From a virus (Duplodnaviria; Caudoviricetes), in the IMG/VR virus record IMGVR_UViG_3300037424_000434, positions 160,001-224,000 of that record: a DNA stretch of 64,000 bases; one strand, 5' to 3'. The notes beneath the pieces were generated by a model. It did no database searches and was not told the DNA's origin. It saw only the letters and a list, made by a program, of their open reading frames with translations. Made by a program: the position numbers and the translations under genes. Below are positions 36,937 through 50,270 of the stretch, in pieces (position 1 is the stretch's first letter; every line of letters begins with the position of its first letter).

Positions 36937-36973
36937 ACCAGTGAATAGTCTTGTGGGGATTCACAAAAAGCAT

Positions 36974-37044
36974 AGGGGCTTGGTGTAGTGGAAACATAAC
37001 CGACTTTGAATCAGTTGCCGAGAGTTCGATTCTCTCAGCCCCCG
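36974..37044 (+). tRNA. tRNA-Gln(TTG), no encoded CCA
   Basis: Cloverleaf, loop CTTTGAA. Confidence 0.8.
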
Positions 37045-37065
37045 GTAATTTGTGAAAGGATTGTC

Positions 37066-37611
37066 ATGACCAAACAGTATGAAGTATCTATAACCGTGAG
37101 ATCTGGGGAAGGAGTGATGGATAAAATCAGAGCACTGAGAGGGGTGTTTTCTTTTATACATCCATCGACAGGCGAAACCCAGTTTATGTTGAGTTTGAAG
37201 GAATCTTTCTGGTTAATTAATGAAGCACGTGATGGGGGTGTAATTTTATATTTATCCCCAAAAACGGCATTGGAACTCTCAGAAAAGGGATTTATAGTTA
37301 AACAACCAAATAACATATCCAAAGGTATTGTCGATGATGGCAGTGAGGAAATAATCACAGTTAGAATATATAAAGAAAATGATGGACTTAAGATCCAAGC
37401 AGTCAGAACCATACGTGCCGCACTTGGATATGGACTGATAGAATCAAAAGATTTGATTGAGGAAATTTGGCAAGACCGCGAACCGGTGGTTGTGGTTATG
37501 ACAAAAAGAGAGGCAACGATATTAATTGATGGTGGATTCGTGGTGGAGATTTTTCCCCCAGACACTGGACCTAACCATTTTGAACCAGATTTATTTGAAA
37601 TGTTCCCTTAG
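37066..37611 (+). CDS. Protein with two ribosomal bL12 C-terminal-like modules
   Basis: KIQAVRTIRAALGYGLIESKDLIE matches bL12 CTD pattern; degenerate N-terminal copy; track start 37006 lies inside tRNA-Gln. Confidence 0.6.
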   Translation: MTKQYEVSITVRSGEGVMDKIRALRGVFSFIHPSTGETQFMLSLKESFWLINEARDGGVILYLSPKTALELSEKGFIVKQPNNISKGIVDDGSEEIITVRIYKENDGLKIQAVRTIRAALGYGLIESKDLIEEIWQDREPVVVVMTKREATILIDGGFVVEIFPPDTGPNHFEPDLFEMFP

Positions 37612-37675
37612 TCTAATGGTAGGGCGGTGAGTTGCAACCTCACAAGCAACGGTTCGATTCCGTTAGGGAATTCCA
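37602..37675 (+). tRNA. tRNA-Cys(GCA)
   Basis: Cloverleaf, U73, CCA; overlaps stop codon of upstream ORF. Confidence 0.85.
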
Positions 37676-37730
37676 ATAGCAAGGTAAAGGAGGGTTTGAT
37701 TCCCTCCATGTCCCCACTAAGGAGAATTAT

Positions 37731-37880
37731 ATGGATGATTCACAGTTTTATAGAAAAATTAATGATCGTTCATGTAACAGTTCTACGTATCATAAGAAGG
37801 ATGGAACATCCGTTAGATCAAAATTGAAAGAGGAATTGAAAAAAATAAAAAAAGAGCTTGACAAAGAGGAATTGGTTTGA
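37731..37880 (+). CDS. 49-aa hypothetical protein
   Basis: MDDSQFYRKINDRSCN...; AAGGAG RBS. Confidence 0.5.
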   Translation: MDDSQFYRKINDRSCNSSTYHKKDGTSVRSKLKEELKKIKKELDKEELV

Positions 37881-37886
37881 TAGTAT
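37858..37886 (+). promoter_or_regulatory. Sigma70 promoter, TTGACA class
   Basis: TTGACA-N17-TAGTAT after A-tracts. Confidence 0.7.
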
Positions 37887-37944
37887 CCGTCTTAAGTTAA
37901 GCAACACGAAACAAAAATTTACGTTTTTTGATAACAGAATAAAT

Positions 37945-38023
37945 GGGTAGTGAGATTAAAATATGCTGGGCATATGTCAGCCTCCAAAACTGATTTTAAT
38001 GGGTTCGATTCCTACGCTACCCG
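37945..38023 (+). tRNA. tRNA-Trp(CCA), irregular D-arm, no CCA end
   Basis: gggtagt/gctaccc acceptor, loop CTCCAAA, T-loop TTCGATT. Confidence 0.6.
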
Positions 38024-38050
38024 CAAAAAACAAAAACGAAAAAATAAAGA

Positions 38051-38079
38051 TTGACATTTGGTGTGAGATGTGTTTTAAT
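38051..38079 (+). promoter_or_regulatory. Sigma70 promoter, TTGACA class
   Basis: TTGACA-N17-TTTAAT after A-tracts. Confidence 0.6.
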
Positions 38080-38105
38080 CCACCTCAGTTCAATAGAAAA
38101 GTTGT

Positions 38106-38184
38106 CGCGGTATAGGGAAGTTTGGTTGTTCCCGTTGGGTTCATATCCCAAAGATCATCGGTTCGAATCCGATTACCGCTCCCA
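38106..38184 (+). tRNA. tRNA-fMet(CAT)
   Basis: 1:72 mismatch, three G-C pairs in anticodon stem, CCA. Confidence 0.85.
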
Positions 38185-38192
38185 GTTGTTAT

Positions 38193-38270
38193 GCTCCTGT
38201 AGTCCAAATTGGAGAAGGACATTGCTCTTTCAAGGCAAGTACGAGGGTTCGATTCCCTTCAGGAGTACCA
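38193..38270 (+). tRNA. tRNA-Glu(TTC)
   Basis: Cloverleaf with CCA. Confidence 0.9.
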
Positions 38271-38273
38271 GTC

Positions 38274-38402
38274 GTTTTGGATAGTAGTTTAAATGACGAA
38301 GAACGTGCCCTTTAATATGGGCAAAGTGAGGAAAGTACCTCGTAAATCGCAGTACAGAAATGTACGCCGTGTTTAGGGAAACCGCCCTCCTATCCAAAAC
38401 CA
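38274..38402 (+). ncRNA. Unassigned structured RNA candidate
   Basis: 11-bp closing stem gttttggatag/ctatccaaaac, four internal hairpins, ends ACCA. Confidence 0.5.
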
Positions 38403-38407
38403 GTTTT

Positions 38408-38482
38408 GTCTCATTCGACTAGGGGTTAGGTCATTAGCCTCTCAAGCTAAAAACATGGGTTCGATTCCCATATGAGACACCA
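38408..38482 (+). tRNA. tRNA-Glu(CTC)
   Basis: Cloverleaf with CCA. Confidence 0.9.
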
Positions 38483-38569
38483 ATTGGAACAATGGCACGG
38501 TGATGGATGGTCTGTCTTGGTTGGATAAACATGAGTTCAGAGAAGAAAGAAAAAATAAGGAAATAGTTG

Positions 38570-38598
38570 TTGACAATGAGTGTGAGTTCTGATATACT
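38570..38598 (+). promoter_or_regulatory. Sigma70 promoter, TTGACA class
   Basis: TTGACA-N17-TATACT with TG extension. Confidence 0.8.
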
Positions 38599-38612
38599 CT
38601 ACTCAAGTCAAA

Positions 38613-38791
38613 ACCTCTCCAACGCAGAGAACGAATCGTAAACGTTGGAAACCAAAGTCTATGACAGTTAGAGGTCTGTTATCTAGTCAAGTTAAAATGA
38701 AAGTTGTGTTCATGGGTGCAGCACATTAAATCGCTTGGGGCCAACGTGGCGAATTCGAATAGTCATATAAAAACGAGAGCTTTCATTTTAA
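38613..38791 (+). ncRNA. Two closed structured domains, unassigned
   Basis: acctct/agaggt + ccaacg/cgttgg; 14-bp ttaaaatgaaagtt/agctttcattttaa. Confidence 0.4.
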
Positions 38792-38799
38792 ACATTTTG

Positions 38800-38876
38800 G
38801 GGGTAGGGCACAGGTTGGCATCTGGTCTTGTCTGTAAAACAACGCAAATACGGTTCGATTCCGTGCTACCCCACCA
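38800..38876 (+). tRNA. tRNA-Tyr(GTA), short variable arm
   Basis: ggggtag/ctacccc, loop CTGTAAA, CCA. Confidence 0.75.
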
Positions 38877-39134
38877 ATTTAAATGGTAAAAACAGGTAAC
38901 ATTCTGGTTTAGCTAACCAAAATAAATCCTGTCTATAATTTGATGACCGGTTAAATCAGATTATTAAGCGTTTGCCCCTAGAGTCGATAAAGGGGTAACA
39001 ATTTAAATGGTAAAAACAGGTAACATTCCGGTTTAGCTGGCCAAAAATAAATCCTGTCTATAATTTGATGACCGGTTAAATCAGATTATTAAGCGTTTGC
39101 CCCTAGAGTCGATAAAGGGGTAGCAATTTAAATG
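38875..39134 (+). repeat. Tandem duplication of a 124/125-nt three-hairpin element (ncRNA candidate)
   Basis: Copies start 38875 and 38999, 11-nt third start at 39124; differences mostly keep pairing via G-U. Confidence 0.9.
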
Positions 39135-39139
39135 TATAT

Positions 39140-39314
39140 GCTCCCGTGTAGAAATATGGCCAACACGAGAAAAAATATCCCATTCATGAGGGGATTACAG
39201 TAACGTGAAGGACTCTAGCCCGGACTCGAAAGGCGCATCAAGCGAAGGTGAACGGTTATCTGGGATAGTTGATAGCAACTATAATTGCTGGTTCGAAGCC
39301 AGCCGGGGGCTCCA
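39140..39314 (+). ncRNA. tRNA-like RNA with ~100 extra nt
   Basis: Acceptor gctcccg/cgggggc, T-arm gctgg-ttcgaag-ccagc, U-CCA end, internal CAT-loop hairpin. Confidence 0.65.
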
Positions 39315-39454
39315 ATTTGTGGGTACCAAATAAAGAGTGCTTTGTCAACCACGGAGAAAGACATGAAACAAGAAATTAATCAAGAAGAACTGGAAAAAAT
39401 GGAGACGTGAAAAATGGATTGAATACGCATCGGTTCGCGTAACTTTGGAGCGCC

Positions 39455-39709
39455 TTGTTATGGCGCGGAGGTAGGGAAGTGTTAAGTAAAAATCAAATGA
39501 AGGCATTAAAGGAATTAACCGCAGCCTTCAAAAAGTGTAAAGCGGTAAATATTTCTTTCTGCGGGATGGACTGCGATCTTCTTGCGTATGATCGAGAAGA
39601 ATTAAGCTCTCAAGAAAAAGAGTTGGGTGGTCTTCACGAAGCGCAAGGAAAATGTGACCATGAAATAGTTAATACGCATGGGACATATTTAGACAGCGGA
39701 GGCTGGTGA
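39455..39709 (+). CDS. Hypothetical protein
   Basis: 84 aa in track; true start probably 39479 or later. Confidence 0.5.
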   Translation: MLWRGGREVLSKNQMKALKELTAAFKKCKAVNISFCGMDCDLLAYDREELSSQEKELGGLHEAQGKCDHEIVNTHGTYLDSGGW

Positions 39710-39877
39710 ACGTAAGGGGGGCGATTAGTACCCTATAGCGTTTTCGTTTAAGAGTGGAACAAACGAAACAAATTCCATTCAAACATTAATATCGCGGTTT
39801 TGTTGAAAAGAAAAGAACGGTTGACCATGCGTTAAAGGTTGTGGGATTTAGTAATTCTTTTTGGCAAACATTTTTGT

Positions 39878-39951
39878 ACCCGATTAGTACAATGGGAGTG
39901 CAACTGGCCTACACCCAGTAGACACGGGTTCGATTCCTGTATCGGGTACCA
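39878..39951 (+). tRNA. tRNA-Val(TAC)
   Basis: Cloverleaf with CCA; C at position 33. Confidence 0.85.
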
Positions 39952-40008
39952 TTAAAACATGTTAGGGTTGAACCATGGGTTCGTAAAAACTTTCCCCCTA
40001 AACTTTAT

Positions 40009-40083
40009 CCCTGTGTAGCTGAGATGGATTAGCGATTGCCTGAAGAGCAGTATAGAAGGGTTCGATACCTTTCACAGGGACCA
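40009..40083 (+). tRNA. tRNA-Phe(GAA)
   Basis: Cloverleaf with CCA. Confidence 0.9.
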
Positions 40084-40089
40084 TTTATT

Positions 40090-40359
40090 CATGGGTCGCG
40101 CCCATGGCGCATCTATCCTATGCGAAAATCATGGTTACGATCATGGTGTGGATACGAGTGTAGAATATAAACCCTCACCGGTGGACTCTGGCATGGTGGC
40201 TACGAACTACTATTGGAATGTTCAATTCATTCTGGGGGTGCCAATTAGAATTGATTGTTGCGGTATAATATGGGCGAGTTAGGGCACGTCCACAGAATCC
40301 ACCTTTAGTGGGGTGGCACAAAGCACTTTAGATGGAGTTGTCAACCATCCAACAATCAA
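40090..40359 (+). ncRNA. Unassigned structured RNA candidate
   Basis: catggg/cccatg, cgcat/atgcg, 10-bp ttgattgttg/caacaatcaa enclosing further hairpins. Confidence 0.45.
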
Positions 40360-40370
40360 CACAAGTTTAT

Positions 40371-40447
40371 GGGAGCGTGATGGAATTGGCATACGTGTTG
40401 GTCTTAGAAACCAAATTTTAGGGGTTCGAATCCCCTCGCTCCTACCA
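40371..40447 (+). tRNA. tRNA-Leu(TAG), short variable arm
   Basis: Cloverleaf with CCA. Confidence 0.88.
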
Positions 40448-40453
40448 AAATGC

Positions 40454-40670
40454 AACAGGTAAACGCTCTAAAGAACATGAGAATGGGTTGGGAGTAATAT
40501 TCCGTAACGGATTACCTGACCACTAGGCTACCCATCTAGACCCTTTATTGGGATAAATCATGTCACCTGTTTACACTACAGTTATAGATACTGTATTATA
40601 AGATTCGTGGGGGATTAGCCCACGAATGCATAGGCATAAGGTTTAAGCCCTTGCAATGACGGGCTCAAAT
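40454..40670 (+). ncRNA. Unassigned structured RNA candidate
   Basis: aacaggt/acctgtt closed domain plus three consecutive hairpins. Confidence 0.5.
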
Positions 40671-40703
40671 CAACTAGCTTAGACCGATTTTTTAAGAATT
40701 TAC

Positions 40704-40774
40704 CGGTGTGTGAGAGAATGGTACTCATCCATCCTTGGACGATGGAAACGCAGGTTCGATTCCTGCCATGCCGA
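40704..40774 (+). tRNA. tRNA-Pro(TGG), no encoded CCA
   Basis: cggtgtg/catgccg, loop CTTGGAC. Confidence 0.8.
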
Positions 40775-40775
40775 C

Positions 40776-40838
40776 TTGACATGTAATAAATATCTCCCTA
40801 TCTCTATTTATAATAGTTCGATATTTATTACATGTCAA
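40776..40838. repeat. Perfect 19-bp inverted repeat with 25-nt spacer
   Basis: ttgacatgtaataaatatc / gatatttattacatgtcaa. Confidence 0.95.
40805..40838 (-). promoter_or_regulatory. Antisense promoter candidate
   Basis: Minus strand TTGACA-N17-TATTAT overlapping minus-strand TATAAATA. Confidence 0.45.
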
Positions 40839-40941
40839 TATATTATACTACATGTTTGAAAGGTACGCACTTTGGGTTGCACCCTATAGCGTTTTAACTA
40901 CTTGCCGAGCAGGGCTTTTCAACTTTCAAACAATTTTTTAT

Positions 40942-41017
40942 GCGGGTAGAACTCAGTCTCATGGTGAGGCAGTAGCCTTCCAAGCTATCGTTAGGTGTTC
41001 GATTCACCCTACCCGCT
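40942..41017 (+). tRNA. tRNA-Gly(TCC), irregular, no CCA
   Basis: gcgggta/tacccgc, loop CTTCCAA; 5 extra nt before D-stem. Confidence 0.65.
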
Positions 41018-41110
41018 TTTTACGAATATCGAACATATATCCGAAATCCTCGGGGTGAATGGATACCGATGAACCCCTTGAGGTGAGTAGGTAACGTAAC
41101 AAAAGCATTT

Positions 41111-41185
41111 GATGCTATCGTATAAGGGTTATTACCTCTGGTTGTCAGCCAGATAATGCGGGTTCGAGTCCCGCTAGCATCGCCA
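41111..41185 (+). tRNA. tRNA-Asp(GTC)
   Basis: Cloverleaf with CCA. Confidence 0.9.
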
Positions 41186-41212
41186 TTTTTTGTTATATAG
41201 ATAGACAGTTAT

Positions 41213-41286
41213 GCTCCTCTAGTTCAATGGCAGAGCAATCGCCCGATTAGCGATGAATCAGGGTTCAAATCCTTGGGGGAGTACCA
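41213..41286 (+). tRNA. tRNA-Ile(GAT)
   Basis: Cloverleaf with CCA; atypical loop CCGATTA. Confidence 0.75.
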
Positions 41287-41295
41287 GAATTTTGT

Positions 41296-41370
41296 TCCTT
41301 CTTAGTTCAGTGGCAGAACGCTTGGCTGTTAACCAAGATGTCGCAAGTTCGAATCTTGCAGAAGGAGCCA
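41296..41370 (+). tRNA. tRNA-Asn(GTT)
   Basis: Cloverleaf with CCA. Confidence 0.92.
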
Positions 41371-41373
41371 TTT

Positions 41374-41445
41374 CAGCGGGGTTAGTTTAAGGGAGAACAG
41401 AGAGGGCTTGCCTCTCAGACATGGGTTTGGATCCTATGCCCTGTA
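41374..41445 (+). pseudogene. Degenerate tRNA remnant
   Basis: D-arm-like tagtttaagggagaac, gagag/ctctc stem, broken T-loop and acceptor. Confidence 0.4.
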
Positions 41446-41474
41446 ATATTTTGTGTTAACACGAGATCAAGGAG

Positions 41475-41729
41475 ATGATTATGGTTAACACGTTCGAAGA
41501 TGACAATTATTTAAAGAGGTTTAATGAGTCACGATCCTTTCTTTGTTCGGGTGGTTATTTAACAGATGGGGAGAATCGAAAAATCAAAGATCGGTTCAGG
41601 AAAGCCGCAGCAAAAAGTGGAACAAAGCTGGAAACGCTTCCCTTTTTTATCAAGCAAAGGGTGAACGTGAACGATTTTGGTATATCAAGGATCATGAATG
41701 AGACAAACAAAGAGAGAATCTTTTGTTGA
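41475..41729 (+). CDS. Hypothetical protein
   Basis: 84 aa, AAGGAG RBS. Confidence 0.55.
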   Translation: MIMVNTFEDDNYLKRFNESRSFLCSGGYLTDGENRKIKDRFRKAAAKSGTKLETLPFFIKQRVNVNDFGISRIMNETNKERIFC

Positions 41730-41925
41730 AGCAATAACAAACATGTTAATCGGATATTCATGTGGCGTATTATCTCAACTATTAGTGTTTCCTTTGGTGG
41801 GAATTTATGTATCATGGAGTGATAATTTATTGCTTGCTCTGTATTTTACTTTAGTAAGCTTGTTGCGAAATTATGTTGTTAGAAGAGTTTTTGATGCAAA
41901 GAAGCATAAAAAGGTTTATGTATAG
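41698..41925 (+). CDS. Small two-TM phage membrane protein (QTKRESFVEAITN family)
   Basis: Recognisable N-terminal motif and two hydrophobic helices. Confidence 0.6.
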   Translation: MRQTKRESFVEAITNMLIGYSCGVLSQLLVFPLVGIYVSWSDNLLLALYFTLVSLLRNYVVRRVFDAKKHKKVYV

Positions 41926-41939
41926 GTCGTAAGTATTAC

Positions 41940-42009
41940 GGGGCTGGCGCTGGGACCGCATAGGAGTTTTGCAAATTTCTTGAGGTGGGTTCGATTCCCA
42001 CTAGCTCCA
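41940..42009 (+). tRNA. tRNA-Ala(TGC), short D-arm, no CCA
   Basis: G3-U70, A73, loop TTTGCAA, T-arm gtggg/cccac. Confidence 0.65.
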
Positions 42010-42064
42010 TAATCAGTTAAGATTGGAGAGAGAACGGTACTATTTTTAACTTGGAGGTAATTAG

Positions 42065-42220
42065 CTGACGCTTGACGAATATATTGAAATGGCTAAACAA
42101 GAATTGGATCTCATGAGAGAAGATTATGAAAGAAATAACAGAATTGATCCAGATTCATGGCCATTAGAACTTGACTCCGGTGCATGGGGCGAGGAAGAAA
42201 TGTGCAGGAGATTTTCTTAA
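42065..42220 (+). CDS. 51-aa acidic protein with CTG start
   Basis: GGAGG RBS then CTG ACG CTT GAC GAA TAT... Confidence 0.4.
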   Translation: MTLDEYIEMAKQELDLMREDYERNNRIDPDSWPLELDSGAWGEEEMCRRFS

Positions 42221-42231
42221 TAAGAGTTTAC

Positions 42232-42310
42232 GGGGGATTGGGCAATTTGGCAAAGCCGCTTGATTCAAAACCAAGAGATTTTACGGGTTCGATCCCCGTA
42301 TCCCCTACCA
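42232..42310 (+). tRNA. tRNA-Leu(CAA)
   Basis: Loop TTCAAAA, A73, CCA. Confidence 0.8.
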
Positions 42311-42321
42311 AAAGAGTTTAT

Positions 42322-42397
42322 GGTGTAGTGCCCAAGAGGTGTTTGGCATTCGGCTGTGACCCGGATTGATTGAGTTCGATTCTCACATTACACCCCA
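42322..42397 (+). tRNA. tRNA-His(GTG)
   Basis: G-1:C73, loop CTGTGAC, CCA. Confidence 0.85.
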
Positions 42398-42405
42398 AAT
42401 TAAAG

Positions 42406-42480
42406 GCACTCATGGTGAAAAGGAAATCACAGGAAACTTCTAATTTCTCGTTCTAGGTTCGAGTCCTAGTGGGTGCGCCA
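42406..42480 (+). tRNA. tRNA-Arg(TCT)
   Basis: Cloverleaf with CCA. Confidence 0.9.
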
Positions 42481-42554
42481 TTTGATAACATTTTTTGTAC
42501 ACTAACAATTGAAATGTTATCACACAAAAATTATAATTGAAAGTGTTTAAAGAC

Positions 42555-42695
42555 AAATTTCGGTGTCGTAAATTAGAGTTACTTCGTCTTCTAAACGAGT
42601 GGTCGCTGGTTCGAATCCAGCCAAGATCCCCAAAAAGGTCTTGTAGCTCAGCGGTAGAGCACTAAATCTCTCTGATTGATTGTTACCCGAAATTT
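42555..42695 (+). ncRNA. yrlA: YrlA-type Y RNA (circularly permuted tRNA-like domain)
   Basis: Order anticodon-like arm, T-arm, acceptor 3' strand, loop, acceptor 5' strand, D-arm, all inside a 5'/3' terminal bulged stem. Confidence 0.8.
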
Positions 42696-42703
42696 TGAGT
42701 TAT

Positions 42704-42778
42704 GCTCCAATAGTTAAACGGTATAACGGGCAACTTATAATTGTTTGTTGGAGGGTTCGACTCCCCCTTGGAGTACCA
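42704..42778 (+). tRNA. tRNA-Ile(TAT)
   Basis: Loop CTTATAA, A73, CCA. Confidence 0.8.
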
Positions 42779-42799
42779 CTTTTTTAATAACGACAATGA

Positions 42800-43025
42800 T
42801 AAGCGGCAACGGGCACCCAATACTGCCATAAGTGCGGGTGGTTTCAACCGCAAACGATAAAACCGAGTTGGGATTGCTGCCCTGATTGCGGAAACGAGAA
42901 AATCCCTTTCGTGGTTGGGCGGTACATCGTTGAAACAAAGAAGTGTGGCCGATGGCTCTGGGTATATTTTGAAACAAAAAATGTCGGGTTTATACCGGCA
43001 ACCTAACAACCCACTCTGGGACTTC
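42800..43025 (+). ncRNA. Unassigned structured RNA candidate
   Basis: tgcgg/ccgca, aacgat/atcgtt enclosing gggatt/aatccc, gtcgg/ccggc; no credible + ORF. Confidence 0.5.
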
Positions 43026-43035
43026 GTGATGATGA

Positions 43036-43110
43036 ACGGGTGTAGTCCAATTGGCAGGAGACGCGGGGCTTAAAACCCTGACAGTGTGAGTTCGAATCTC
43101 ATCACCCGTA
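43036..43110 (+). tRNA. tRNA-Leu(TAA), CTA in place of CCA
   Basis: acgggtg/cacccgt, loop CTTAAAA. Confidence 0.82.
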
Positions 43111-43130
43111 CTAATAGAAAGGAAAAGATT

Positions 43131-43364
43131 ATGAAAGTAAACATTGACGCAAAAGAATCATTACAACGTGACCCCGCGCATGATATTCAATCTGTCTTAA
43201 ACATTGGGTTCAAATGTCCGGACACGCGAACTGCGATAAACAAGGTAGTGGCAAGACTTGAGGGCCGTATCTGGGCACACGAAAACGATGAACAACAGAT
43301 GTGCGAGGATGAATACGAGGACTGCAAGAACGATTTAGCGTTGCTGAAGTTACTGATCGGCTAA
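43131..43364 (+). CDS. Hypothetical protein
   Basis: ATG 43131 after AAAGGA; track start overlaps tRNA. Confidence 0.6.
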   Translation: MKVNIDAKESLQRDPAHDIQSVLNIGFKCPDTRTAINKVVARLEGRIWAHENDEQQMCEDEYEDCKNDLALLKLLIG

Positions 43365-43367
43365 CCA

Positions 43368-43673
43368 GTGAAATTCTTAATAAAAGAGATTTCTAATGAA
43401 ACTTTTATTCACATTAGAAAGTGGATAGTGGATGTTGATGGAAATGAAAGCTGTAACTATAGAAGTCGTACCAGTATTAATTGTTTCTTTTATGGCAAAC
43501 ACCATAGAAACAAAACAAAAGACTTCCTGTATCATGGGGAGTCTTTGAGGGAAGCAATTGACGTTAGAGGATTTGATCCAGAAGGAGTTGCTGAGGTTGA
43601 TTCTATCTGGGAGTTTTATAAGATCATTGGTTATGATTATAAAAAGAAAAAATATGTTGACAAAACACTATAG
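43368..43673 (+). CDS. Hypothetical protein
   Basis: 101 aa. Confidence 0.55.
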   Translation: MKFLIKEISNETFIHIRKWIVDVDGNESCNYRSRTSINCFFYGKHHRNKTKDFLYHGESLREAIDVRGFDPEGVAEVDSIWEFYKIIGYDYKKKKYVDKTL

Positions 43674-43685
43674 AAAGGATACTAT
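43657..43685 (+). promoter_or_regulatory. Sigma70 promoter, TTGACA class
   Basis: TTGACA-N17-TACTAT. Confidence 0.6.
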
Positions 43686-43690
43686 TAATC

Positions 43691-43828
43691 ATGGCAGCAA
43701 AAAATGGTTCAACCAAAAGCTCAAAACGTAAAATGAAAACTTCTATTGGTAAGAGCAAGAACACTGTATACAACAAAGCTCACCAAAAGAAACATGGCAA
43801 AAAAGTATACCGTGGTCAGGGGCGATAA
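43691..43828 (+). CDS. 45-aa very basic protein ending KKVYRGQGR
   Basis: MAAKNGSTKSSKRKMKTSIGKSKNTVYNKAHQKKHGKKVYRGQGR; AAAGGA RBS. Confidence 0.65.
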   Translation: MAAKNGSTKSSKRKMKTSIGKSKNTVYNKAHQKKHGKKVYRGQGR

Positions 43829-43897
43829 ATGATTATTGCACCAAATGGCATGAGAACGAAGAAATCAGGTATTTCTTATTAAGTGACAGGAATAATC

Positions 43898-44053
43898 ATG
43901 CATTGGTTAAAGAAATTATTGGGTCTATGTGATCATAAGTGGGAGATCATCAAAGAAATTGAATGCTTTGAATATAGTTTTTCAAAACATCCATATAAAA
44001 CGAAATATATCTTACAATGTAAACATTGTGGGAACATTAAAAGAGTAAAGTGA
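43898..44053 (+). CDS. 51-aa Zn-binding hypothetical (CDHKW...CKHC)
   Basis: AGGA RBS; same pattern as 26042 ORF. Confidence 0.55.
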   Translation: MHWLKKLLGLCDHKWEIIKEIECFEYSFSKHPYKTKYILQCKHCGNIKRVK

Positions 44054-44218
44054 AGTAAAAGGCAATGGCAGTTAAAGATGACAAAAAAGATGTTGTTAAA
44101 AAGCCGTACAACATATTTTGAGGAGAATGACGATGAAACGAAAACAAAGAGATAAACTCATCGTGTTCTTGGGATAGATTAACACTCGCCCATGAGCACG
44201 TAAAACAACAGTGTTTAT

Positions 44219-44296
44219 GGGCGCGTAACTCAATTGGATTAGAGTATCCGGCTTTTACCCGGTAAGTTGTGGGTTCGAGTCCCACCGCGCCCACCA
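44219..44296 (+). tRNA. tRNA-Lys(TTT)
   Basis: Cloverleaf with CCA. Confidence 0.9.
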
Positions 44297-44310
44297 AAAT
44301 TTTGATTTGC

Positions 44311-44384
44311 GCGGGTGTAGTTCAATGGAAGAACAGTATACTTTTAATATACCTATCGGGGTTCGATTCCCTGTACCCGTACCA
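44311..44384 (+). tRNA. tRNA-Lys(TTT), second divergent copy
   Basis: Loop CTTTTAA, A73, CCA. Confidence 0.75.
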
Positions 44385-44393
44385 TTTTTTGGG

Positions 44394-44468
44394 GGGGGTA
44401 TAACTCAGTTGGCAGAGTACCTGACTCTTAATCAGGAGGTCACTGGTTCGATCCCAGTTGCCCCACCA
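44394..44468 (+). tRNA. tRNA-Lys(CTT)
   Basis: Loop CTCTTAA; acceptor one pair short. Confidence 0.8.
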
Positions 44469-44485
44469 AGATAAAAATAGAACAT

Positions 44486-44571
44486 GGAAGGTAGCGTCAT
44501 GGCGACAAACTAGTCTTGAAAATTAGGCCGGGTGTGAAAGCCCGAGGGTTCGATTCCTTTACCTTCTTCCA
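44486..44571 (+). tRNA. tRNA-Ser(TGA)
   Basis: Long variable arm, loop CTTGAAA, U73-CCA. Confidence 0.75.
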
Positions 44572-44601
44572 CCAATGGACAAAGCATAAGTCCTTTATTT
44601 C

Positions 44602-44675
44602 GCCGCTATAGTTAAAAGGTATAACGCCTGTTTTGTAATCAGGATTTCGGGGTTCGAGTCCTCGTAGCGGCCCCA
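44602..44675 (+). tRNA. tRNA-Thr(TGT)
   Basis: Cloverleaf with CCA. Confidence 0.88.
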
Positions 44676-44701
44676 TTTTAAACAACAAAAGGCTCAAGAA
44701 G

Positions 44702-44863
44702 ATGTTGACATTATCGAAGCTTAGAAAAGCTTGGCTGAAAAACGTAGGTTACGTTCGCATTGCTAATGAGTTGTGCCTTGATCCCGATATGGTCCAAACT
44801 GTTTATGCACGATGGACAGAAGAGCACCTTAGAAAAAGATCTGGATGGATGTATCCATATTAA
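44702..44863 (+). CDS. 53-aa hypothetical protein
   Basis: MLTLSKLRKAWLKNVGYVRIANEL... Confidence 0.45.
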   Translation: MLTLSKLRKAWLKNVGYVRIANELCLDPDMVQTVYARWTEEHLRKRSGWMYPY

Positions 44864-44956
44864 GGAAAGTTAATCAATCAGGGCATTGACACCGACTGCT
44901 AATCGGTTGGTTCAGTAGTGATACTGAATAGGTTTCGAGTACCTAGCTTTCCTCCA
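44864..44956 (+). tRNA. tRNA-Ser(GCT), atypical fold
   Basis: 8-bp acceptor possible, 5-bp D-stem, long variable arm, U73-CCA. Confidence 0.8.
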
Positions 44957-44974
44957 TTAATGAAAGGATGACTT

Positions 44975-45715
44975 ATGTTTAAGATAAATCTTCATGCCCA
45001 TACTCAATATTCCGATGGTCAGGCCACTATTGCGCAAATGGCAGAAGCCTGCAAAGATTTGGAATTCACTGCATGTGTTATTACTGACCACGTTTATATG
45101 GATGATCGTCGGCCAAGTGTTTCACAGAGTCAATATTTACATAAAATCCTACCAGAAGCCCGTGAGGTCCAAGAGAAAGTAGGTATTCCTGTTATTGTCG
45201 GTGCGGAATTTAGCATTGGACGAATGGAAGAATGCTTAGTGTTTGGAACACAGGCAATCACAGAGCTATATTCTATGAGACAAGAATATATGAACATTAA
45301 AGACGCATATCTTGACATAGCAGATCTTGCATATATTCGAGATAATCGGGATTGTGCTGTTATTTTATGCCACCCTAGCATTCCCGTATACGGCGATAAT
45401 TTTTCCACATTTGACCCCGAAAATCCCCAAAAAACCAAACCCATGAAAAATTGGATAACCCAAGGCGGGGTTAATGTTATTGATGGATATGAAGGGATTA
45501 ATTCCGGCCAACCCCAGTTTGGTAAATTTAGAAATGTGCCCAAAGAGTTTGATGGTTTGATTTCCTTTTGCAACTCGGATGCCCATAGTGTGATATCATT
45601 GTCATTGGGGTATAATGAGACAGCATCCCCTATATACACAGAAGACGATCTTATAAGGTATATCAAGGGTGGGGGTGTTTGGAAGCACCATACTGTGCCT
45701 TGGAGATACGAATAA
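44975..45715 (+). CDS. PHP-domain phosphoesterase
   Basis: NLHAHTQYSDG, ITDH, GAE, CHP, NSDAH. Confidence 0.88.
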   Translation: MFKINLHAHTQYSDGQATIAQMAEACKDLEFTACVITDHVYMDDRRPSVSQSQYLHKILPEAREVQEKVGIPVIVGAEFSIGRMEECLVFGTQAITELYSMRQEYMNIKDAYLDIADLAYIRDNRDCAVILCHPSIPVYGDNFSTFDPENPQKTKPMKNWITQGGVNVIDGYEGINSGQPQFGKFRNVPKEFDGLISFCNSDAHSVISLSLGYNETASPIYTEDDLIRYIKGGGVWKHHTVPWRYE

Positions 45716-45966
45716 TGGACAATAACAAACTTGACAAATTAAGAGATATACGGTATACTGTTCGTAAGTGTTGTGGTACATGTAACAATGCCTGTTTTGA
45801 ATTCAGGGCTGAATGGGGGACATGCAAAATACATGAATATATACACAAAAAACATACAGGTAAACCTAGACATCTGAGTATTCATATGTATGGTTCGTGT
45901 GGCAGTTATGATATGAATAATGTTTTTGAAGCTGTCACTGAACACTATAAGGAGTTTTATGAGTAA
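45715..45966 (+). CDS. Cys/His-rich hypothetical protein
   Basis: CCGTC..CKIH..GSC; ATG 45715 couples to PHP stop. Confidence 0.6.
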   Translation: MDNNKLDKLRDIRYTVRKCCGTCNNACFEFRAEWGTCKIHEYIHKKHTGKPRHLSIHMYGSCGSYDMNNVFEAVTEHYKEFYE

Positions 45967-46624
45967 TGTAAAGCTGATTGCTGTGACAAAACCTGTTCTG
46001 GATGGGTGTGAGACAGCAGAAGAATTGATTTCGTATTGTGCTAGGGTATCAAACCCAGACAATCAAAGAAAGTATGATACAGCCGGTAAGTTGCTTCGAT
46101 ACATGTTAAAACATAAACATTTCAGTCCATTTGAAATGGCCCATATGGTTATGGAGATCAAAACAACCCGCGACATTGCTCGGCAGATTTTGCGTCACAG
46201 ATCGTTTTCTTTTCAAGAGTATAGTCAGAGATATGCAGCGGTAACCCCTGATTCGTTTGTGCTATCAGAGGCTCGTTTGCAGGACAAGTTCAATCGACAA
46301 AATTCAATTGAGGTTAGTGATAAAGCATTGCTTGATTGGTGGACTTTGAATCAAGGGAGGCTTTTGGACATGACGATTGCTCTGTATAATACCGCTCTCG
46401 AAAAGGGTATTGCAAAGGAAGTGGCCCGAAAGGTTTTGCCTGAAGGTATTACCGGGAGTGTGATGTACATGTCAGGCACAGTTCGCAGTTTCATTCATTA
46501 TTGTGATGTTAGACGGAAAAGCGATACTCAGCTTGAGCACCGATTGATTGCAAATGAAGTGTGGGATATATTATGCCAGCAGTTCCCCACTATACCCGAA
46601 GCACTGGAGATGTCAGATGAGTAA
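45959..46624 (+). CDS. thyX: Flavin-dependent thymidylate synthase
   Basis: ARVS, HFSPFE, RHRSFSFQEYSQRY, TQLEHR. Confidence 0.97.
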   Translation: MSNVKLIAVTKPVLDGCETAEELISYCARVSNPDNQRKYDTAGKLLRYMLKHKHFSPFEMAHMVMEIKTTRDIARQILRHRSFSFQEYSQRYAAVTPDSFVLSEARLQDKFNRQNSIEVSDKALLDWWTLNQGRLLDMTIALYNTALEKGIAKEVARKVLPEGITGSVMYMSGTVRSFIHYCDVRRKSDTQLEHRLIANEVWDILCQQFPTIPEALEMSDE

Positions 46625-46805
46625 AGAAATCGTGATATGTGAGGAGTGCTGTGGTAGGGGGTTTTTGATTAAATCAGTGTTAGAAGACTACCATAGGGGC
46701 ATATATACCGAAAAGAACGTTCCGTGTAACACGTGCAAGGAGTCCGGCAGACTTATCAAGATCACAACCATTGTAATTAGACCATACGAAAGTGACGTAG
46801 ACTGA
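46617..46805 (+). CDS. DnaJ-type zinc-finger small protein
   Basis: CEECCGRG and CNTCKESG repeats. Confidence 0.6.
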   Translation: MSKEIVICEECCGRGFLIKSVLEDYHRGIYTEKNVPCNTCKESGRLIKITTIVIRPYESDVD

Positions 46806-46817
46806 TTTTTTTTTTTG

Positions 46818-46846
46818 TTGACACAAAGAATGTGGGGTGGTATAGT
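46818..46846 (+). promoter_or_regulatory. Sigma70 promoter, TTGACA class
   Basis: TTGACA-N17-TATAGT after T-tract. Confidence 0.75.
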
Positions 46847-46887
46847 GTTCCTGTAGCGACAAACAACCCTGTCGAACGGAGCTAACT

Positions 46888-47262
46888 ATGTGTCAAATGA
46901 GTGATATTCATGATGAAGCGGTTAATGCGGGTTTGGAAGCAGGTAGCCGACACAAACCTGTTCCGATGATTGTGGGCGAGGAAAAAACCCTCTTCTCAAA
47001 TGAGATTGATTATGACAAAAAGGTGTACTATGTTGAATCAGGGGTTTGTGGGTTTGCGTGGGTTGAGATTTTTCCCGCTCGTGGCAAGTTCGTTTCGTAT
47101 TTAAAGAAAAACGATATTGGCCGGGTTGGGGATCGCGGTTATAGGATTCCTGTTTTTGTGTTCGGACAGTCACTTGAACGGAAAGAGAAATACGCCGAGG
47201 CTTTTGCATCTGTTCTAAAAAAACATGGCATTAAAGCGTATGCGAACTCCCGAGTGGATTGA
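46888..47262 (+). CDS. Conserved-type phage hypothetical protein
   Basis: GVCGFAWV...QSLERKEKYAEAFA motif. Confidence 0.7.
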   Translation: MCQMSDIHDEAVNAGLEAGSRHKPVPMIVGEEKTLFSNEIDYDKKVYYVESGVCGFAWVEIFPARGKFVSYLKKNDIGRVGDRGYRIPVFVFGQSLERKEKYAEAFASVLKKHGIKAYANSRVD

Positions 47263-47268
47263 TTTTTG

Positions 47269-47276
47269 TATAAATA
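47269..47276 (+). promoter_or_regulatory. Late promoter TATAAATA
   Basis: Exact consensus 7 nt upstream of tRNA-like element. Confidence 0.65.
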
Positions 47277-47283
47277 GAAGTAT

Positions 47284-47355
47284 GGCGGTATGTATGATTA
47301 TGACTGGTTGGCTCATATCCGACCGGGGAAAGTTTGATTCTTTCTACCGCTACCA
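47284..47355 (+). tRNA. D-arm-degenerate tRNA(CAT)-like element
   Basis: ggcggta/taccgct-A-CCA, loop CTCATAT, T-arm gaaag-tttgatt-ctttc. Confidence 0.6.
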
Positions 47356-47407
47356 TATAGTCAAAAAGAGAATGAGTCTCTTGGCGATTTTTTGTTAACA
47401 CAAAGAG

Positions 47408-47668
47408 GTGAATTATATGTCAAAGCATCACGACGAGGTTATTTCGGCGTATGGGTTGAGCACTGTAACATTTGACCATCTTGCCTTATACACTGTTGGT
47501 GTATTTTATTGGGGTGGTAATGGTTCTCCTGTTAGTACATATAAAATATTGGCTGATAAGAAAGAAGACGCTATTAAATATGTTAATAATAATTTGAAAG
47601 TATCTTATCTTCACCGAGTATCAATAATTTCAACAGAACCAAATCCAAACAGGCCAAAACATGCGTAA
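47408..47668 (+). CDS. Hypothetical protein
   Basis: 86 aa, GAGG RBS. Confidence 0.5.
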   Translation: MNYMSKHHDEVISAYGLSTVTFDHLALYTVGVFYWGGNGSPVSTYKILADKKEDAIKYVNNNLKVSYLHRVSIISTEPNPNRPKHA

Positions 47669-47888
47669 GTATGAAATTAAAACAGTGGAAACAAGGTTGC
47701 TTATCAGCCTGAAATGTGATATCTGTGGTATGGATATCATAAACTCACCACTTGAAGAACAAGAAGCAATCTTAATCGCAGATATTGGTGGATATAGTTC
47801 CGTGTTTGGTGACGGATGCGAATATCAACTTGATATGTGCCAGCACTGTTTCAAAGAAAAGCTTGGCCAATATGTGAGAATTTTATGA
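47661..47888 (+). CDS. Zn-binding hypothetical protein
   Basis: CDICG ... DMCQHC. Confidence 0.6.
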   Translation: MRKYEIKTVETRLLISLKCDICGMDIINSPLEEQEAILIADIGGYSSVFGDGCEYQLDMCQHCFKEKLGQYVRIL

Positions 47889-48046
47889 CATGTCCAGAAT
47901 GTGGTGATATTGTTGTGATAGAGGGATTGTGCAAAGATTGTAGAAATACGATGTTATCTAAACACAATTGTACTGATTGTGCGTGTGAATCATATATACA
48001 GCCATGTGAAGCATGTGATAATGGATCTTGTAGGGATTCATATTAG
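47885..48046 (+). CDS. Cys-rich small protein
   Basis: Four CxxC; ATGA overlap at 47885. Confidence 0.5.
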   Translation: MTCPECGDIVVIEGLCKDCRNTMLSKHNCTDCACESYIQPCEACDNGSCRDSY

Positions 48047-48107
48047 CATGATGACAAAAGGAGTTTAACACTTGGCTAACGGGCTTGTGGCCCAAGGAGG
48101 TAGACAG

Positions 48108-48383
48108 ATGAAACCACGGCAAAAAGATCCTTTATGCGTAGAAAAACCGCAACCCGCCGTTGAGTGCCTTGTTGTGCCCGGTCCAACAACGGCAGAAACA
48201 AGCAAATACAAATTCGGCAACATCTCGTGGATTAAGGGTGATCTACAGCAATGTGTTCTTCGGGCCGCTGTTGATTGGAAAAATTTTCAGTCGGCTGAAA
48301 ATGCACAGGCTCTCTATATGTCTGTGCTTGCGATGCTTGGGGAAGAACCGGAAAACATACATTTACTGGATGGTGAGTCGTAA
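48108..48383 (+). CDS. Hypothetical protein
   Basis: AAGGAGG RBS before ATG 48108. Confidence 0.6.
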   Translation: MKPRQKDPLCVEKPQPAVECLVVPGPTTAETSKYKFGNISWIKGDLQQCVLRAAVDWKNFQSAENAQALYMSVLAMLGEEPENIHLLDGES

Positions 48384-48435
48384 TCAAGGGGAAATCTACA
48401 GTGATGTGAGTTTCCAAAGCATACGTGGGTAAAGC

Positions 48436-48684
48436 ATGGGGTATGTTCTTATAGAAACAAGAACCCAGCAATGGAGCAAAATCAAGGAGTTACAAATGAC
48501 AGATGATGGATTTTTTGACAGCACGCCACCGGACCCCAAAAGAAAGTTGCGCTTTACCTATACGCTGTGGTCTTCGACCGGCGCGGGATTTGGTCTAGGT
48601 GTCTGGCGCGTCGTTTACTTACCGACAAACGTAATATGGACGATAGCTATTGGCCCGCTGTCGATTTATTTACGGTACGTATAG
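48436..48684 (+). CDS. Hypothetical protein
   Basis: 82 aa; start could be 48496. Confidence 0.45.
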   Translation: MGYVLIETRTQQWSKIKELQMTDDGFFDSTPPDPKRKLRFTYTLWSSTGAGFGLGVWRVVYLPTNVIWTIAIGPLSIYLRYV

Positions 48685-48783
48685 CGATTGTGTTGCTGTA
48701 GCATATAACATATTCTAATATATTGAACTAACAAGAAAGGTTGTTATTGATTGAGAACGTTTCTACTGCCAAAGGCTAAAGCA

Positions 48784-48930: not shown

Positions 48931-48960
48931 TTCTTTCCTGAATTCGTATAATGGTGGTGT

Positions 48961-50125: not shown

Positions 50126-50127
50126 GA

Positions 50128-50268: not shown

Positions 50269-50270
50269 AA

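What the first reader, a model, noticed from the sequence alone, without database searches (positions are those of the whole stretch)
39140..39314. 175-nt tRNA shell with about 100 nt of inserted structure
Seen: 7-bp acceptor (U3-G70), intact T-arm, U-CCA end, D-loop-like GG. The interior holds atccc-[attCATgag]-gggat, cgag/ctcg, and an atcaa/ttgat arm containing GCGAAGGTGAA. Inference: processed like a tRNA by RNase P and CCA recognition but not a normal adaptor. It could be an intron-containing tRNA, a decoy for anticodon nucleases or uncharged-tRNA sensors, or a new ncRNA class using tRNA ends for stability.
Basis: partly seen in the sequence, partly recalled or inferred. Interest (0 to 1): 0.65.

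Follow-up and report, generated by a model that had tools for sequence, protein, structure and literature searches.

The report
Overgrown serine-tRNA look-alike in phage
A 175-base gene in the tRNA cluster of an uncultured 236-kb T4-like phage is a complete serine-type tRNA frame with two extra pieces (50 and 27 bases) in its D loop and anticodon loop. As made it cannot read codons, so it joins the old, unexplained group of tRNA-shaped stable RNAs of phages T4 and T5.

Summary
The tRNA shell at 39140-39314 is real: a 7-bp acceptor stem, a canonical T arm and U-CCA. ARAGORN and Rfam do not call it.

The interior is not one 100-nt insert. The fold is a class-II (long variable arm) cloverleaf with two loop expansions: 50 nt at the 3' end of the D loop and 27 nt at the canonical 37/38 site of the anticodon loop.

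Deleting both leaves a 98-nt tRNA-Ser(CGA). ARAGORN scores it above every real tRNA of the window, and only 2 of 172 interior shuffles do as well.

No splicing signal was found. There is no BHB motif, no EndA gene, and the inserts are far too short for group I. The acceptor stem lacks the GGA start kept by 13 of the other 15 phage tRNA-Ser aligned. UCG is the rarest Ser codon.

No relative could be retrieved, so there is no covariation evidence.

Best reading (about 0.5): an unspliced, tRNA-processed, non-decoding tRNA mimic. T5 RNA1/RNA2 and T4 RNAC are the same kind, but it matches neither family's model. Rivals are a spliced tRNA gene (about 0.13) and a decaying tRNA gene (about 0.22).

This scan has noted the same kind before in other phage genomes.

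The parts
38570..38598 (+). sigma-70-like promoter (TTGACA-17-TATACT, TG extended -10) upstream of tRNA-Tyr; likely start of the transcript that carries the element
   Evidence: 11 of 12 consensus matches; function inferred
39140..39146 (+). acceptor stem, 5' strand GCUCCCG (pairs with 39304-39310; U3-G70)
   Evidence: pair probability 0.99
39149..39163 (+). D stem 5' strand UAGA plus D loop AAUAUGGCCAA (A14, A15, G18 G19, A21 equivalents); U8 at 39147
   Evidence: the D stem UAGA/UCUA has only 0.18 ensemble probability
39164..39213 (+). expansion 1 (50 nt) between the D loop and the D stem 3' strand: rod CACG/CGUG (39164-39167/39204-39207) tipped by AUCCC-AUUCAUGAG-GGGAU (39177-39195), whose loop resembles a CAU anticodon loop
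   Evidence: pair probabilities 0.99 and 0.83; unique in the genome
39214..39217 (+). D stem 3' strand UCUA
39219..39230 (+). anticodon stem 5' strand CCCGGA and loop start CUCGAA (U33, CGA at 39227-39229, A37)
   Evidence: 15 of 17 identical to a phage tRNA-Ser(UGA) anticodon arm; the motif occurs once in the 236-kb genome
39231..39257 (+). expansion 2 (27 nt) at the canonical 37/38 position (junction ambiguous by one A): small hairpin CGC-AUCAA-GCG and purine-rich GAAGGUGAA
   Evidence: no BHB motif
39258..39264 (+). A38 and anticodon stem 3' strand UCUGGG
   Evidence: stem probability 0.97
39265..39286 (+). long variable arm AUAGUUG-AUAG-CAACUAU followed by AAUU (U48 opposite A15)
   Evidence: 0.98
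39287..39303 (+). T arm GCUGG-UUCGAAG-CCAGC
   Evidence: one loop base away from the T arm of the YrlA-like RNA at 42605-42621
39304..39314 (+). acceptor stem 3' strand CGGGGGC, discriminator U, encoded CCA

Best explanation
The element is a gene for a tRNA-derived, CCA-ended RNA of about 175 nt. It keeps the full five-helix frame of a class-II, serine-type tRNA: acceptor, D, anticodon, long variable and T arms. It carries two loop expansions, a 50-nt rod at the 3' end of the D loop and 27 nt at position 37/38 of the anticodon loop.

Inferred steps:
- It is co-transcribed with tRNA-Tyr from the promoter at 38570.
- RNase P cuts it out at G1, and it is trimmed to, or repaired at, its encoded CCA. 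The phage has its own CCA-type nucleotidyltransferase.
- It then accumulates unspliced, as T5 RNA1/RNA2 and T4 RNAC do.
- With a 34-nt anticodon loop it cannot decode.

Most likely (low confidence for this last step) it works as a tRNA look-alike. Its intact acceptor/T-arm/elbow would occupy a tRNA-binding protein, either a host tRNA-targeting nuclease or an enzyme of the phage's own RNA-repair set (RtcB, Rnl2, Ro60). The two expansions would supply specificity or block cleavage.

Shown: the sequence anatomy and its statistical support. Inferred: transcription, processing, stability and function.
For: Shell and helices:
- Shell. Acceptor partner p about 0.022.
- Ensemble probabilities of 0.97-1.00 for the acceptor, anticodon, variable and T helices, and 0.99 for the rod base. 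The helices come in the order of a class-II cloverleaf.

tRNA core:
- Of 150,652 double deletions, the only ones that pass ARAGORN at -ps120 remove 25-74 (or 24-74) and 92-118 (or 93-119), and they give tRNA-Ser(CGA). No real tRNA of the window passes ps120.
- Only 2 of 172 dinucleotide shuffles of the interior reach ps120.
- The rejoined anticodon arm is 15/17 identical to a phage tRNA-Ser(UGA) arm, the best of 287 tRNAs compared.
- U8-A14, A15-U48, G18 G19, U54-A58 and C56 are all in place (read from the sequence).
- A model built from the element aligns to ordinary tRNAs with both blocks skipped. Its best hit is a class-II tRNA-Ser.

Against decoding or splicing:
- Not called by ARAGORN with default introns or by Rfam.
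- No BHB motif, no EndA, no Archease.
- The acceptor stem starts GCU, while 13 of the other 15 phage tRNA-Ser aligned start GGA.
- UCG is the rarest Ser codon, 6.5 per 1000.

Precedent:
- T5 RNA1 is annotated as a tRNA-like stable RNA. It has the same frame with an oversized anticodon loop, and it also becomes an ARAGORN tRNA (up to ps110) when about 40 nt are deleted.
- T4 RNAC is a covariation-supported tRNA-framed RNA, detected in infected cells, role unknown (PMC3014915; PMC9697503).

Context: promoter; RtcB, Ro60 and a CCA-type enzyme in the genome.
Against: - No homologue was found anywhere, so there is no conservation or covariation evidence.
- The folding z-score is only -1.55.
- The inserts are A-rich and weakly structured.
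- The D stem of the tRNA reading has 0.18 probability, against 0.74 for an alternative that pairs the GG.
- There are no expression data.
- A frame this intact, with an insert exactly at 37/38, is also what an intron-bearing tRNA gene would look like.
- The proposed protein partner is pure inference.
Confidence: 0.5

Rival explanations
1. It is a doubly interrupted tRNA-Ser(CGA) gene. Both blocks would be cut out by an unidentified endonuclease, and the exons joined by the phage's RtcB (or Rnl2 after end healing), giving a 98-nt decoding tRNA.
For: A complete, very high-scoring cloverleaf appears after removing exactly two loop-located blocks (null 2/172). One block sits at the canonical 37/38 site. 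The anticodon loop becomes CU-CGA-AA, with a stem like that of phage tRNA-Ser(UGA). The phage has tRNA-Ser(GCU) and (GGA) but no NGA isoacceptor. RtcB is encoded and Rnl2 heads the array. There is published precedent for unexplained 'introns' in phage tRNA genes (PMC6784885).
Against: No BHB motif at either junction. No EndA-family endonuclease or Archease in a 98%-complete genome. At 27 and 50 nt the blocks are far below a group I core of roughly 100 nt (PMC4033280), and there is no Rfam intron hit. The acceptor stem lacks G2-C71/A3-U70, which 13 of the other 15 phage tRNA-Ser aligned keep and which are SerRS identity elements in E. coli (textbook knowledge, from memory). UCG is the least used Ser codon. 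T5 RNA1 shows that 'becomes a tRNA when the insert is deleted' also holds for an RNA annotated as stable at full length.
Confidence: 0.13
2. It is a decaying tRNA gene: a former tRNA-Ser that took two insertions and lost its function, perhaps still transcribed and trimmed but without a role.
For: No homologue was found, so no selection is demonstrable. The thermodynamic signal is weak. The acceptor stem has drifted from the Ser consensus. The codon it would read is rare. The array holds other low-scoring tRNA-like genes.
Against: All 29 base pairs of the five tRNA helices are intact, with only 2 G-U pairs, and every universal tertiary nucleotide is kept. Both insertions lie in loops. The rejoined frame outscores all real tRNAs of the window. 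The inserts are not copies of other genome sequence or of a mobile element. Comparable RNAs in T4 and T5 are conserved or stable.
Confidence: 0.22
3. There is no 175-nt unit. An orphan 3' tRNA fragment (T arm + CCA) meets a complementary 7-mer 171 nt upstream by chance.
For: Shells of this kind arise by chance next to real T arms: 22 strict hits in 1.27 Mb, most of them overlapping ordinary tRNAs. The partner alone has p about 0.02.
Against: The interior independently contains a D-arm half, a split anticodon arm and a variable arm in the right order (p about 0.017 given the shell). The joint chance is of order 4e-4. The 5' end follows the same AAUUUAAAUG spacer that follows tRNA-Tyr and each upstream repeat unit.
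Confidence: 0.05

Closest known systems
Phage T5 RNA1 and RNA2 (NC_005859 30501-30644 and 32959-33083, annotated 'tRNA-like stable RNA with unknown functions')
   Same: They are encoded inside a phage tRNA cluster. They have an acceptor stem, D arm, variable-arm hairpin and canonical T arm, with an oversized region where the 7-nt anticodon loop should be. RNA1 also turns into an ARAGORN-callable class-II tRNA when its insert is deleted. Their function is unknown.
   Different: No sequence relationship: the element's model scores RNA2 at 14.6 bits, like ordinary tRNAs, and does not pick up RNA1. The T5 RNAs have one expansion, this one has two. Here the rejoined anticodon loop is unambiguous (CGA) and scores much higher (ps120 against ps110). 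CCA is encoded here.
Phage T4 RNAC (species 1 RNA, rnaC; NC_000866 70908-71046) and its relatives in Tevenvirinae
   Same: A tRNA-cluster gene in a T4-type phage. It has an acceptor-like stem, a long rod near the D-arm position, a variable-arm-like hairpin directly before a canonical T arm (22 covarying pairs), and a similar T stem CUGG/CCAG. Its role is unknown (PMC3014915, PMC9697503).
   Different: The RNAC covariance model hits only the T arm of the element (7.9 bits, E 1.3). RNAC has no anticodon arm and does not resolve into a tRNA on deletion. RNAC does not encode CCA.
'Enigmatic' introns in tRNA genes of Lak megaphages (Devoto et al. 2019, PMC6784885)
   Same: Oversized tRNA genes of a large phage, read as a tRNA plus an insert at the anticodon loop, with no known splicing mechanism.
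   Different: The Lak cases were called by tRNAscan in eukaryotic mode with a single insert, and insert-free alleles exist for comparison. Here there are two inserts, one of them in the D loop, no insert-free allele is known, and the phage lineage is unrelated.
Multi-intron tRNA genes of Thermoproteales archaea (BHB introns; PMC4033280)
   Same: Several short inserts in one tRNA gene, at 37/38 and at non-canonical sites including the D arm. An RtcB-type ligase is available.
   Different: The defining BHB motif and the EndA endonuclease were tested and are absent. The host is bacterial, since the phage carries a tmRNA.
tmRNA and YrlA Y RNAs (other tRNA mimics encoded by this same phage)
   Same: They use tRNA acceptor/T-arm mimicry. 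The element's T arm is one base from that of the YrlA-like RNA at 42562-42687.
   Different: No tag reading frame or pseudoknots, and no Rfam tmRNA or YrlA hit. The topology is not permuted: the ends lie at the acceptor stem, not at a Ro-binding stem.

Membership tests
Canonical tRNA (Rfam RF00005 / ARAGORN) | 70-95 nt cloverleaf with a 7-nt anticodon loop, detected by the standard models | tested here: not met
   No call by ARAGORN (with -i at default threshold) or Rfam at gathering or E<=10. As transcribed, the anticodon loop is 34 nt and the D arm about 69 nt.
Canonical tRNA (Rfam RF00005 / ARAGORN) | All cloverleaf helices and universal tertiary nucleotides present in the right order | tested here: met
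   After removing 25-74 and 92-118, ARAGORN calls tRNA-Ser(CGA) up to -ps120. U8, A14, A15-U48, G18 G19, U33, A37, U54-A58 and C56 are read from the sequence.
Group I intron-containing bacterial tRNA | Self-splicing intron with a catalytic core of about 100 nt or more at 37/38 | tested here: not met
   The inserts are 27 and 50 nt. There is no Rfam group I hit at E<=10. Size criterion from PMC4033280.
Protein-spliced (BHB) intron tRNA | Bulge-helix-bulge motif placing both splice sites in 3-nt bulges | tested here: not met
   A script scan for strict and relaxed BHB found no motif whose cut sites match either block.
Protein-spliced (BHB) intron tRNA | EndA-family splicing endonuclease available | tested here: not met
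   PF01974 is absent from the 98%-complete phage genome. The host is unknown.
Protein-spliced (BHB) intron tRNA | RtcB-type ligase available | tested here: met
   PF01139 at 195 bits, at C1:40558-41793. Archease is absent.
T4 RNAC (species 1 RNA) family | Match to the family's sequence and structure profile | tested here: not met
   Model R1 was built from 7 members with 22 covarying pairs. Only the T arm of the element matches, at 7.9 bits and E 1.3.
T5 RNA1/RNA2-type tRNA-like stable RNAs | tRNA frame with an oversized anticodon region, encoded in a phage tRNA cluster | tested here: met
   Folds and deletion test of T5 RNA1, compared for the element.
T5 RNA1/RNA2-type tRNA-like stable RNAs | Sequence homology to RNA1 or RNA2 | tested here: not met
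   Model R2 scores RNA2 at 14.6 bits, within the range of ordinary tRNAs, and RNA1 is not recovered.
T5 RNA1/RNA2-type tRNA-like stable RNAs | Accumulates as a stable full-length RNA during infection | not testable with these tools
   Uncultured phage, no transcript data.
YrlA / Y RNA (RF02553) | Ro-binding terminal stem with a permuted tRNA-like domain; Rfam match | tested here: not met
   No Rfam hit at E<=10. The ends form an acceptor stem with CCA.
tmRNA (RF00023) | tRNA-like domain plus pseudoknots and a tag reading frame | tested here: not met
   No Rfam hit on the element. ARAGORN -m at a lowered threshold gives only implausible minus-strand 'permuted' calls. The real tmRNA is at 50355-50709.
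tRNA-Ser identity set (bacterial SerRS) | Long variable arm | tested here: met
   7-bp variable hairpin at 39265-39282.
tRNA-Ser identity set (bacterial SerRS) | G1-C72, G2-C71, A3-U70 acceptor pairs (E. coli identity elements, from memory) | tested here: not met
   The element has G1-C72, C2-G71, U3-G70. Of the other 15 phage tRNA-Ser aligned, 13 start GGA.

The most novel reading that the evidence does not exclude
A bacteriophage tRNA-Ser(CGA) gene split by two short non-group-I, non-BHB inserts (D loop 21/22 and anticodon loop 37/38). The inserts would be removed by an unknown endonuclease and the exons sealed by the phage's own RtcB or Rnl2. That would be protein-dependent tRNA splicing in a bacterial virus.
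Probability: 0.12. Interest if true: 0.85.

Novelty: new member of a known kind. Interest (0 to 1): 0.42.

Why it matters
tRNA-framed stable RNAs have been known from T4 and T5 for some fifty years, and no function has been assigned. Oversized 'intron-bearing' tRNA genes of large phages are likewise unexplained.

This example is unusually clean. Every tRNA helix and tertiary nucleotide is kept. The two added blocks are sharply delimited. One of them sits at the canonical intron site. The same genome encodes RtcB, Rnl2, Ro60/YrlA and a CCA-adding-type enzyme.

That makes it a good test object. One RNA-seq or Northern experiment would show whether such genes are spliced into working tRNAs or act unspliced as tRNA mimics. 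Splicing would be a new pathway for bacteria and their viruses. Unspliced mimics could, for example, act against tRNA-targeting defence nucleases.

On present evidence it is one more orphan member of a known puzzle, without conservation support.

Tried and rejected
- Sequence homologues: none in the INPHARED phages, in IMG/VR by three DNA patterns, or by nhmmer in 102 Rnl2-linked loci and the phage's own genome.
IMG/VR and GTDB gave at most 37% and 30%. The ClpB-like and Rnl2 single-protein scans found no close phage. The baseplate gp6 protein is only 24-26% identical to any isolate.
- Single-sequence covariance model R2: finds only ordinary tRNAs in 34 related loci.
- Single-deletion 'one intron' models: 121 weak, mutually inconsistent ARAGORN calls, and none at ps110. 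ARAGORN's forced tRNA-Val with a 75-nt intron at ps80 was rejected.
- L030:1677-1862, a 186-nt shell in a distant relative: it does not resolve into a tRNA and has no Rfam match, so it is not an analogue.
- Hammerhead or other ribozymes, riboswitches, group I introns: no Rfam match at E<=10.
- tmRNA-like messenger reading: there is an SD-like AGGUGA at 39247-39251, but no start codon at a usable distance (read from the sequence).
- Inserts as copies of a mobile or repeated element: none in the genome.
- Ser-specificity of the anticodon arm: the best match of 287 is tRNA-Ser(UGA), but Ala, Tyr and Lys arms score 13-14 of 17. The arm is therefore clearly a tRNA anticodon arm and only weakly Ser-specific.

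Full report
**Setting.** The window is C1:160001-224000 of a 235,765-bp IMG/VR virus record that is 98% complete. Its Rnl2 is about 30% identical to those of T4-type phages, and its gp6-like baseplate protein is 24-26% identical to any isolate's. It is therefore a deep-branching, uncultured T4-like phage. Positions 36973-50709 hold 27 ARAGORN tRNAs and a tmRNA. There are further tRNAs that ARAGORN misses: Gly-UCC at 40942, Ala-UGC at 41940, and a probable Arg-ACG at 40171.

**Observation.** At 39140-39314 the sequence has:
- a 7-bp acceptor stem GCUCCCG/CGGGGGC with U3-G70;
- directly before the 3' strand, a T arm GCUGG-UUCGAAG-CCAGC;
- then U-CCA.

In the window it is the only T arm + NCCA that lies outside a called tRNA and has its acceptor partner at an oversized distance. 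A 7/7 partner with at most one G-U occurs in 2.2% of shuffles of the 396 nt upstream. Neither ARAGORN (also with introns at default stringency) nor Rfam (gathering, or E<=10) reports anything on it. His cgag/ctcg and atcaa/ttgat helices have about zero probability in the ensemble.

**Anatomy.** The partition function gives 0.97-1.00 for four helices:
- acceptor (1-7/165-171);
- CCCGGA/UCUGGG (80-85/120-125);
- the hairpin AUAGUUG-AUAG-CAACUAU (126-143);
- the T arm.

It gives 0.99 for a rod base CACG/CGUG (25-28/65-68). The order of arms is that of a class-II tRNA: an overgrown first arm in the D position, an arm with a 34-nt loop in the anticodon position, a long variable arm, then the T arm.

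Read as a tRNA, U8, UAGA (10-13), AAUAUGGCCAA (A14, A15, G18 G19, A21) and UCUA (75-78) make the D arm, with 50 nt (25-74) inserted before its 3' strand. CCCGGA-CUCGAA...A-UCUGGG makes the anticodon arm, with 27 nt (92-118) inserted at 37/38. A15 faces U48. The D stem itself is thermodynamically weak: 0.18, against 0.74 for a rival pairing that uses the GG.

**Test of the tRNA reading.** I enumerated 150,652 double deletions of the interior and scored them with ARAGORN.
- At -ps120 only four survive, all the same solution: remove 25-74 (or 24-74) and 92-118 (or 93-119), giving tRNA-Ser(CGA).
- No genuine tRNA of the window survives ps120, and 18 of 26 survive ps110.
- No single deletion survives ps110.
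- With the interior dinucleotide-shuffled, 40 of 68 shuffles reach ps110. Pooled over both runs, 40 of 172 reach ps115 and 2 of 172 reach ps120. So p is about 0.017 given the shell.

ARAGORN's scale may favour long variable arms, so the ranking against class-I tRNAs should not be over-read.

Independent checks agree. The rejoined anticodon arm is 15/17 identical to the tRNA-Ser(UGA) arm of Salmonella phage CF-SP2, the best of 287 tRNAs. Arms of other specificities reach 13-14, so the match shows 'anticodon arm' more than 'Ser'. The 12-nt motif CCGGACUNGAAA occurs once in the genome. A covariance model of the element aligns to ordinary tRNAs by skipping exactly the two blocks, and its top hit among the T4/T5 loci is a class-II tRNA-Ser.

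**Is it spliced?** Nothing tested supports a known pathway.
- The blocks are far too short for group I introns (PMC4033280), and Rfam finds none.
- A scan for strict and relaxed bulge-helix-bulge motifs finds none at the junctions.
- The genome lacks EndA and Archease.
- It does encode RtcB, beside NAD-salvage genes and ClpP, with no nuclease next to it.
- It also encodes Rnl2 at the head of the array, Ro60 and a CCA-adding-type enzyme.
- The acceptor stem (G1-C72, C2-G71, U3-G70) lacks the GGA start kept by 13 of the other 15 phage tRNA-Ser aligned, including this phage's own two. It does share their U73.
- UCG is the least used Ser codon, 6.5 per 1000 against 17 for UCA and UCU.

**Known relatives in kind.**
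- *T4 RNAC.* It has an acceptor-like stem, a rod, a variable-arm-like hairpin and a canonical T arm. Seven diverse members give 22 covarying pairs. Its role is unknown, and it is detected in infected cells (PMC3014915; PMC9697503). Rfam has no family for it. Its covariance model matches only the element's T arm, and RNAC does not resolve into a tRNA on deletion.
- *T5 RNA1 and RNA2.* They are annotated 'tRNA-like stable RNA with unknown functions'. RNA1 has the same frame with an oversized anticodon loop, and it becomes an ARAGORN tRNA (up to ps110, anticodon ambiguous) when about 40 nt are deleted. So 'a tRNA appears when the insert is removed' does not imply splicing.
- *Lak megaphages.* They carry tRNA genes with 'enigmatic introns' (PMC6784885).

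Earlier notes of this scan gave me the T5 and Lak leads, and they report the same kind in other phage genomes. I checked the two leads myself and did not use those notes as evidence.

**Context.** A strong sigma-70-like promoter (TTGACA-17-TATACT) lies at 38570-38598. After it come tRNA-Tyr, two 124-nt repeat units, the element, small unannotated ORFs and tRNA-Val. The element's T arm differs at one loop base from that of the YrlA-like RNA at 42562-42687, and is unlike the T arm of any bona fide tRNA of the array.

**Verdict.** The thing is real and tRNA-derived; the joint chance of shell and interior is of order 4e-4.
- Most likely (about 0.5): an unspliced, tRNA-processed, non-decoding tRNA mimic of the T5 RNA1 / T4 RNAC kind. 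Its function is unknown, and a role as occupant of a tRNA-binding protein is inference only.
- A spliced tRNA-Ser(CGA): about 0.13.
- A decaying tRNA gene: about 0.22.
- A chance shell: about 0.05.

**Limits.** There is therefore no covariation or conservation evidence, and there are no expression data.

Noticed in passing
window 40171-40243 (+): A 73-nt CCA-ended tRNA-like gene called by neither ARAGORN nor Rfam. Acceptor ACCCUCA/UGGGGGU, T arm GAAUG-UUCAAUU-CAUUC, anticodon-type loop CUACGAA (ACG, Arg?). It overlaps a 63-aa ORF.
   Followed up: partly
window 40942-41017 and 41940-42011 (+): tRNA-Gly(UCC), found by Rfam only at 31.8 bits, and tRNA-Ala(UGC) with G3-U70. Both lack an encoded CCA and both are missed by ARAGORN.
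   Followed up: partly
window 42605-42621 vs 39287-39303: The T arm of the YrlA-like RNA and that of the element are identical except for one loop base, and unlike any ordinary tRNA of the array. This suggests common descent or a shared partner.
   Followed up: partly
window 38877-39134 (+): Two tandem units of about 124 nt lie between tRNA-Tyr and the element. Each is preceded by the spacer AAUUUAAAUG, which also precedes the element.
   Followed up: no
L103:1109-1247 (-) and homologues L104-L109: The T4 RNAC family has a well-supported tRNA-framed structure (22 covarying pairs in 7 sequences) and is found in 748 phage records. Rfam 15 has no family for RNAC or RNAD.
   Followed up: yes
L183:202-345 (-): T5 RNA1, annotated as a stable tRNA-like RNA, becomes an ARAGORN-callable class-II tRNA (up to ps110, anticodon ambiguous) when about 40 nt of its anticodon-loop insert are deleted.
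   Followed up: yes
G000:C1:36500-45500 (L182), C1:~88.1-88.5 kb, C1:~92 kb: Outside the window the phage encodes RtcB next to a NAD-salvage set (NUDIX, NMNAT-like, NAD synthase, nicotinamidase) and ClpP. It also encodes a CCA-adding/poly(A)-polymerase-family enzyme and a Ro60 (TROVE) protein.
   Followed up: partly
L030:1677-1862 and L030:4163-4257: A distant Rnl2-linked metagenome contig has a 186-nt acceptor + T-arm shell without CCA that does not resolve into a tRNA. It also has a 95-nt 'tRNA-Ile' with an oversized interior.
   Followed up: partly
window 44219-44467 and 41376-41445: ARAGORN calls five tRNA-Lys genes (UUU and CUU) in one array. tRNA-Lys is the classic target of anticodon nucleases such as PrrC.
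   Followed up: no
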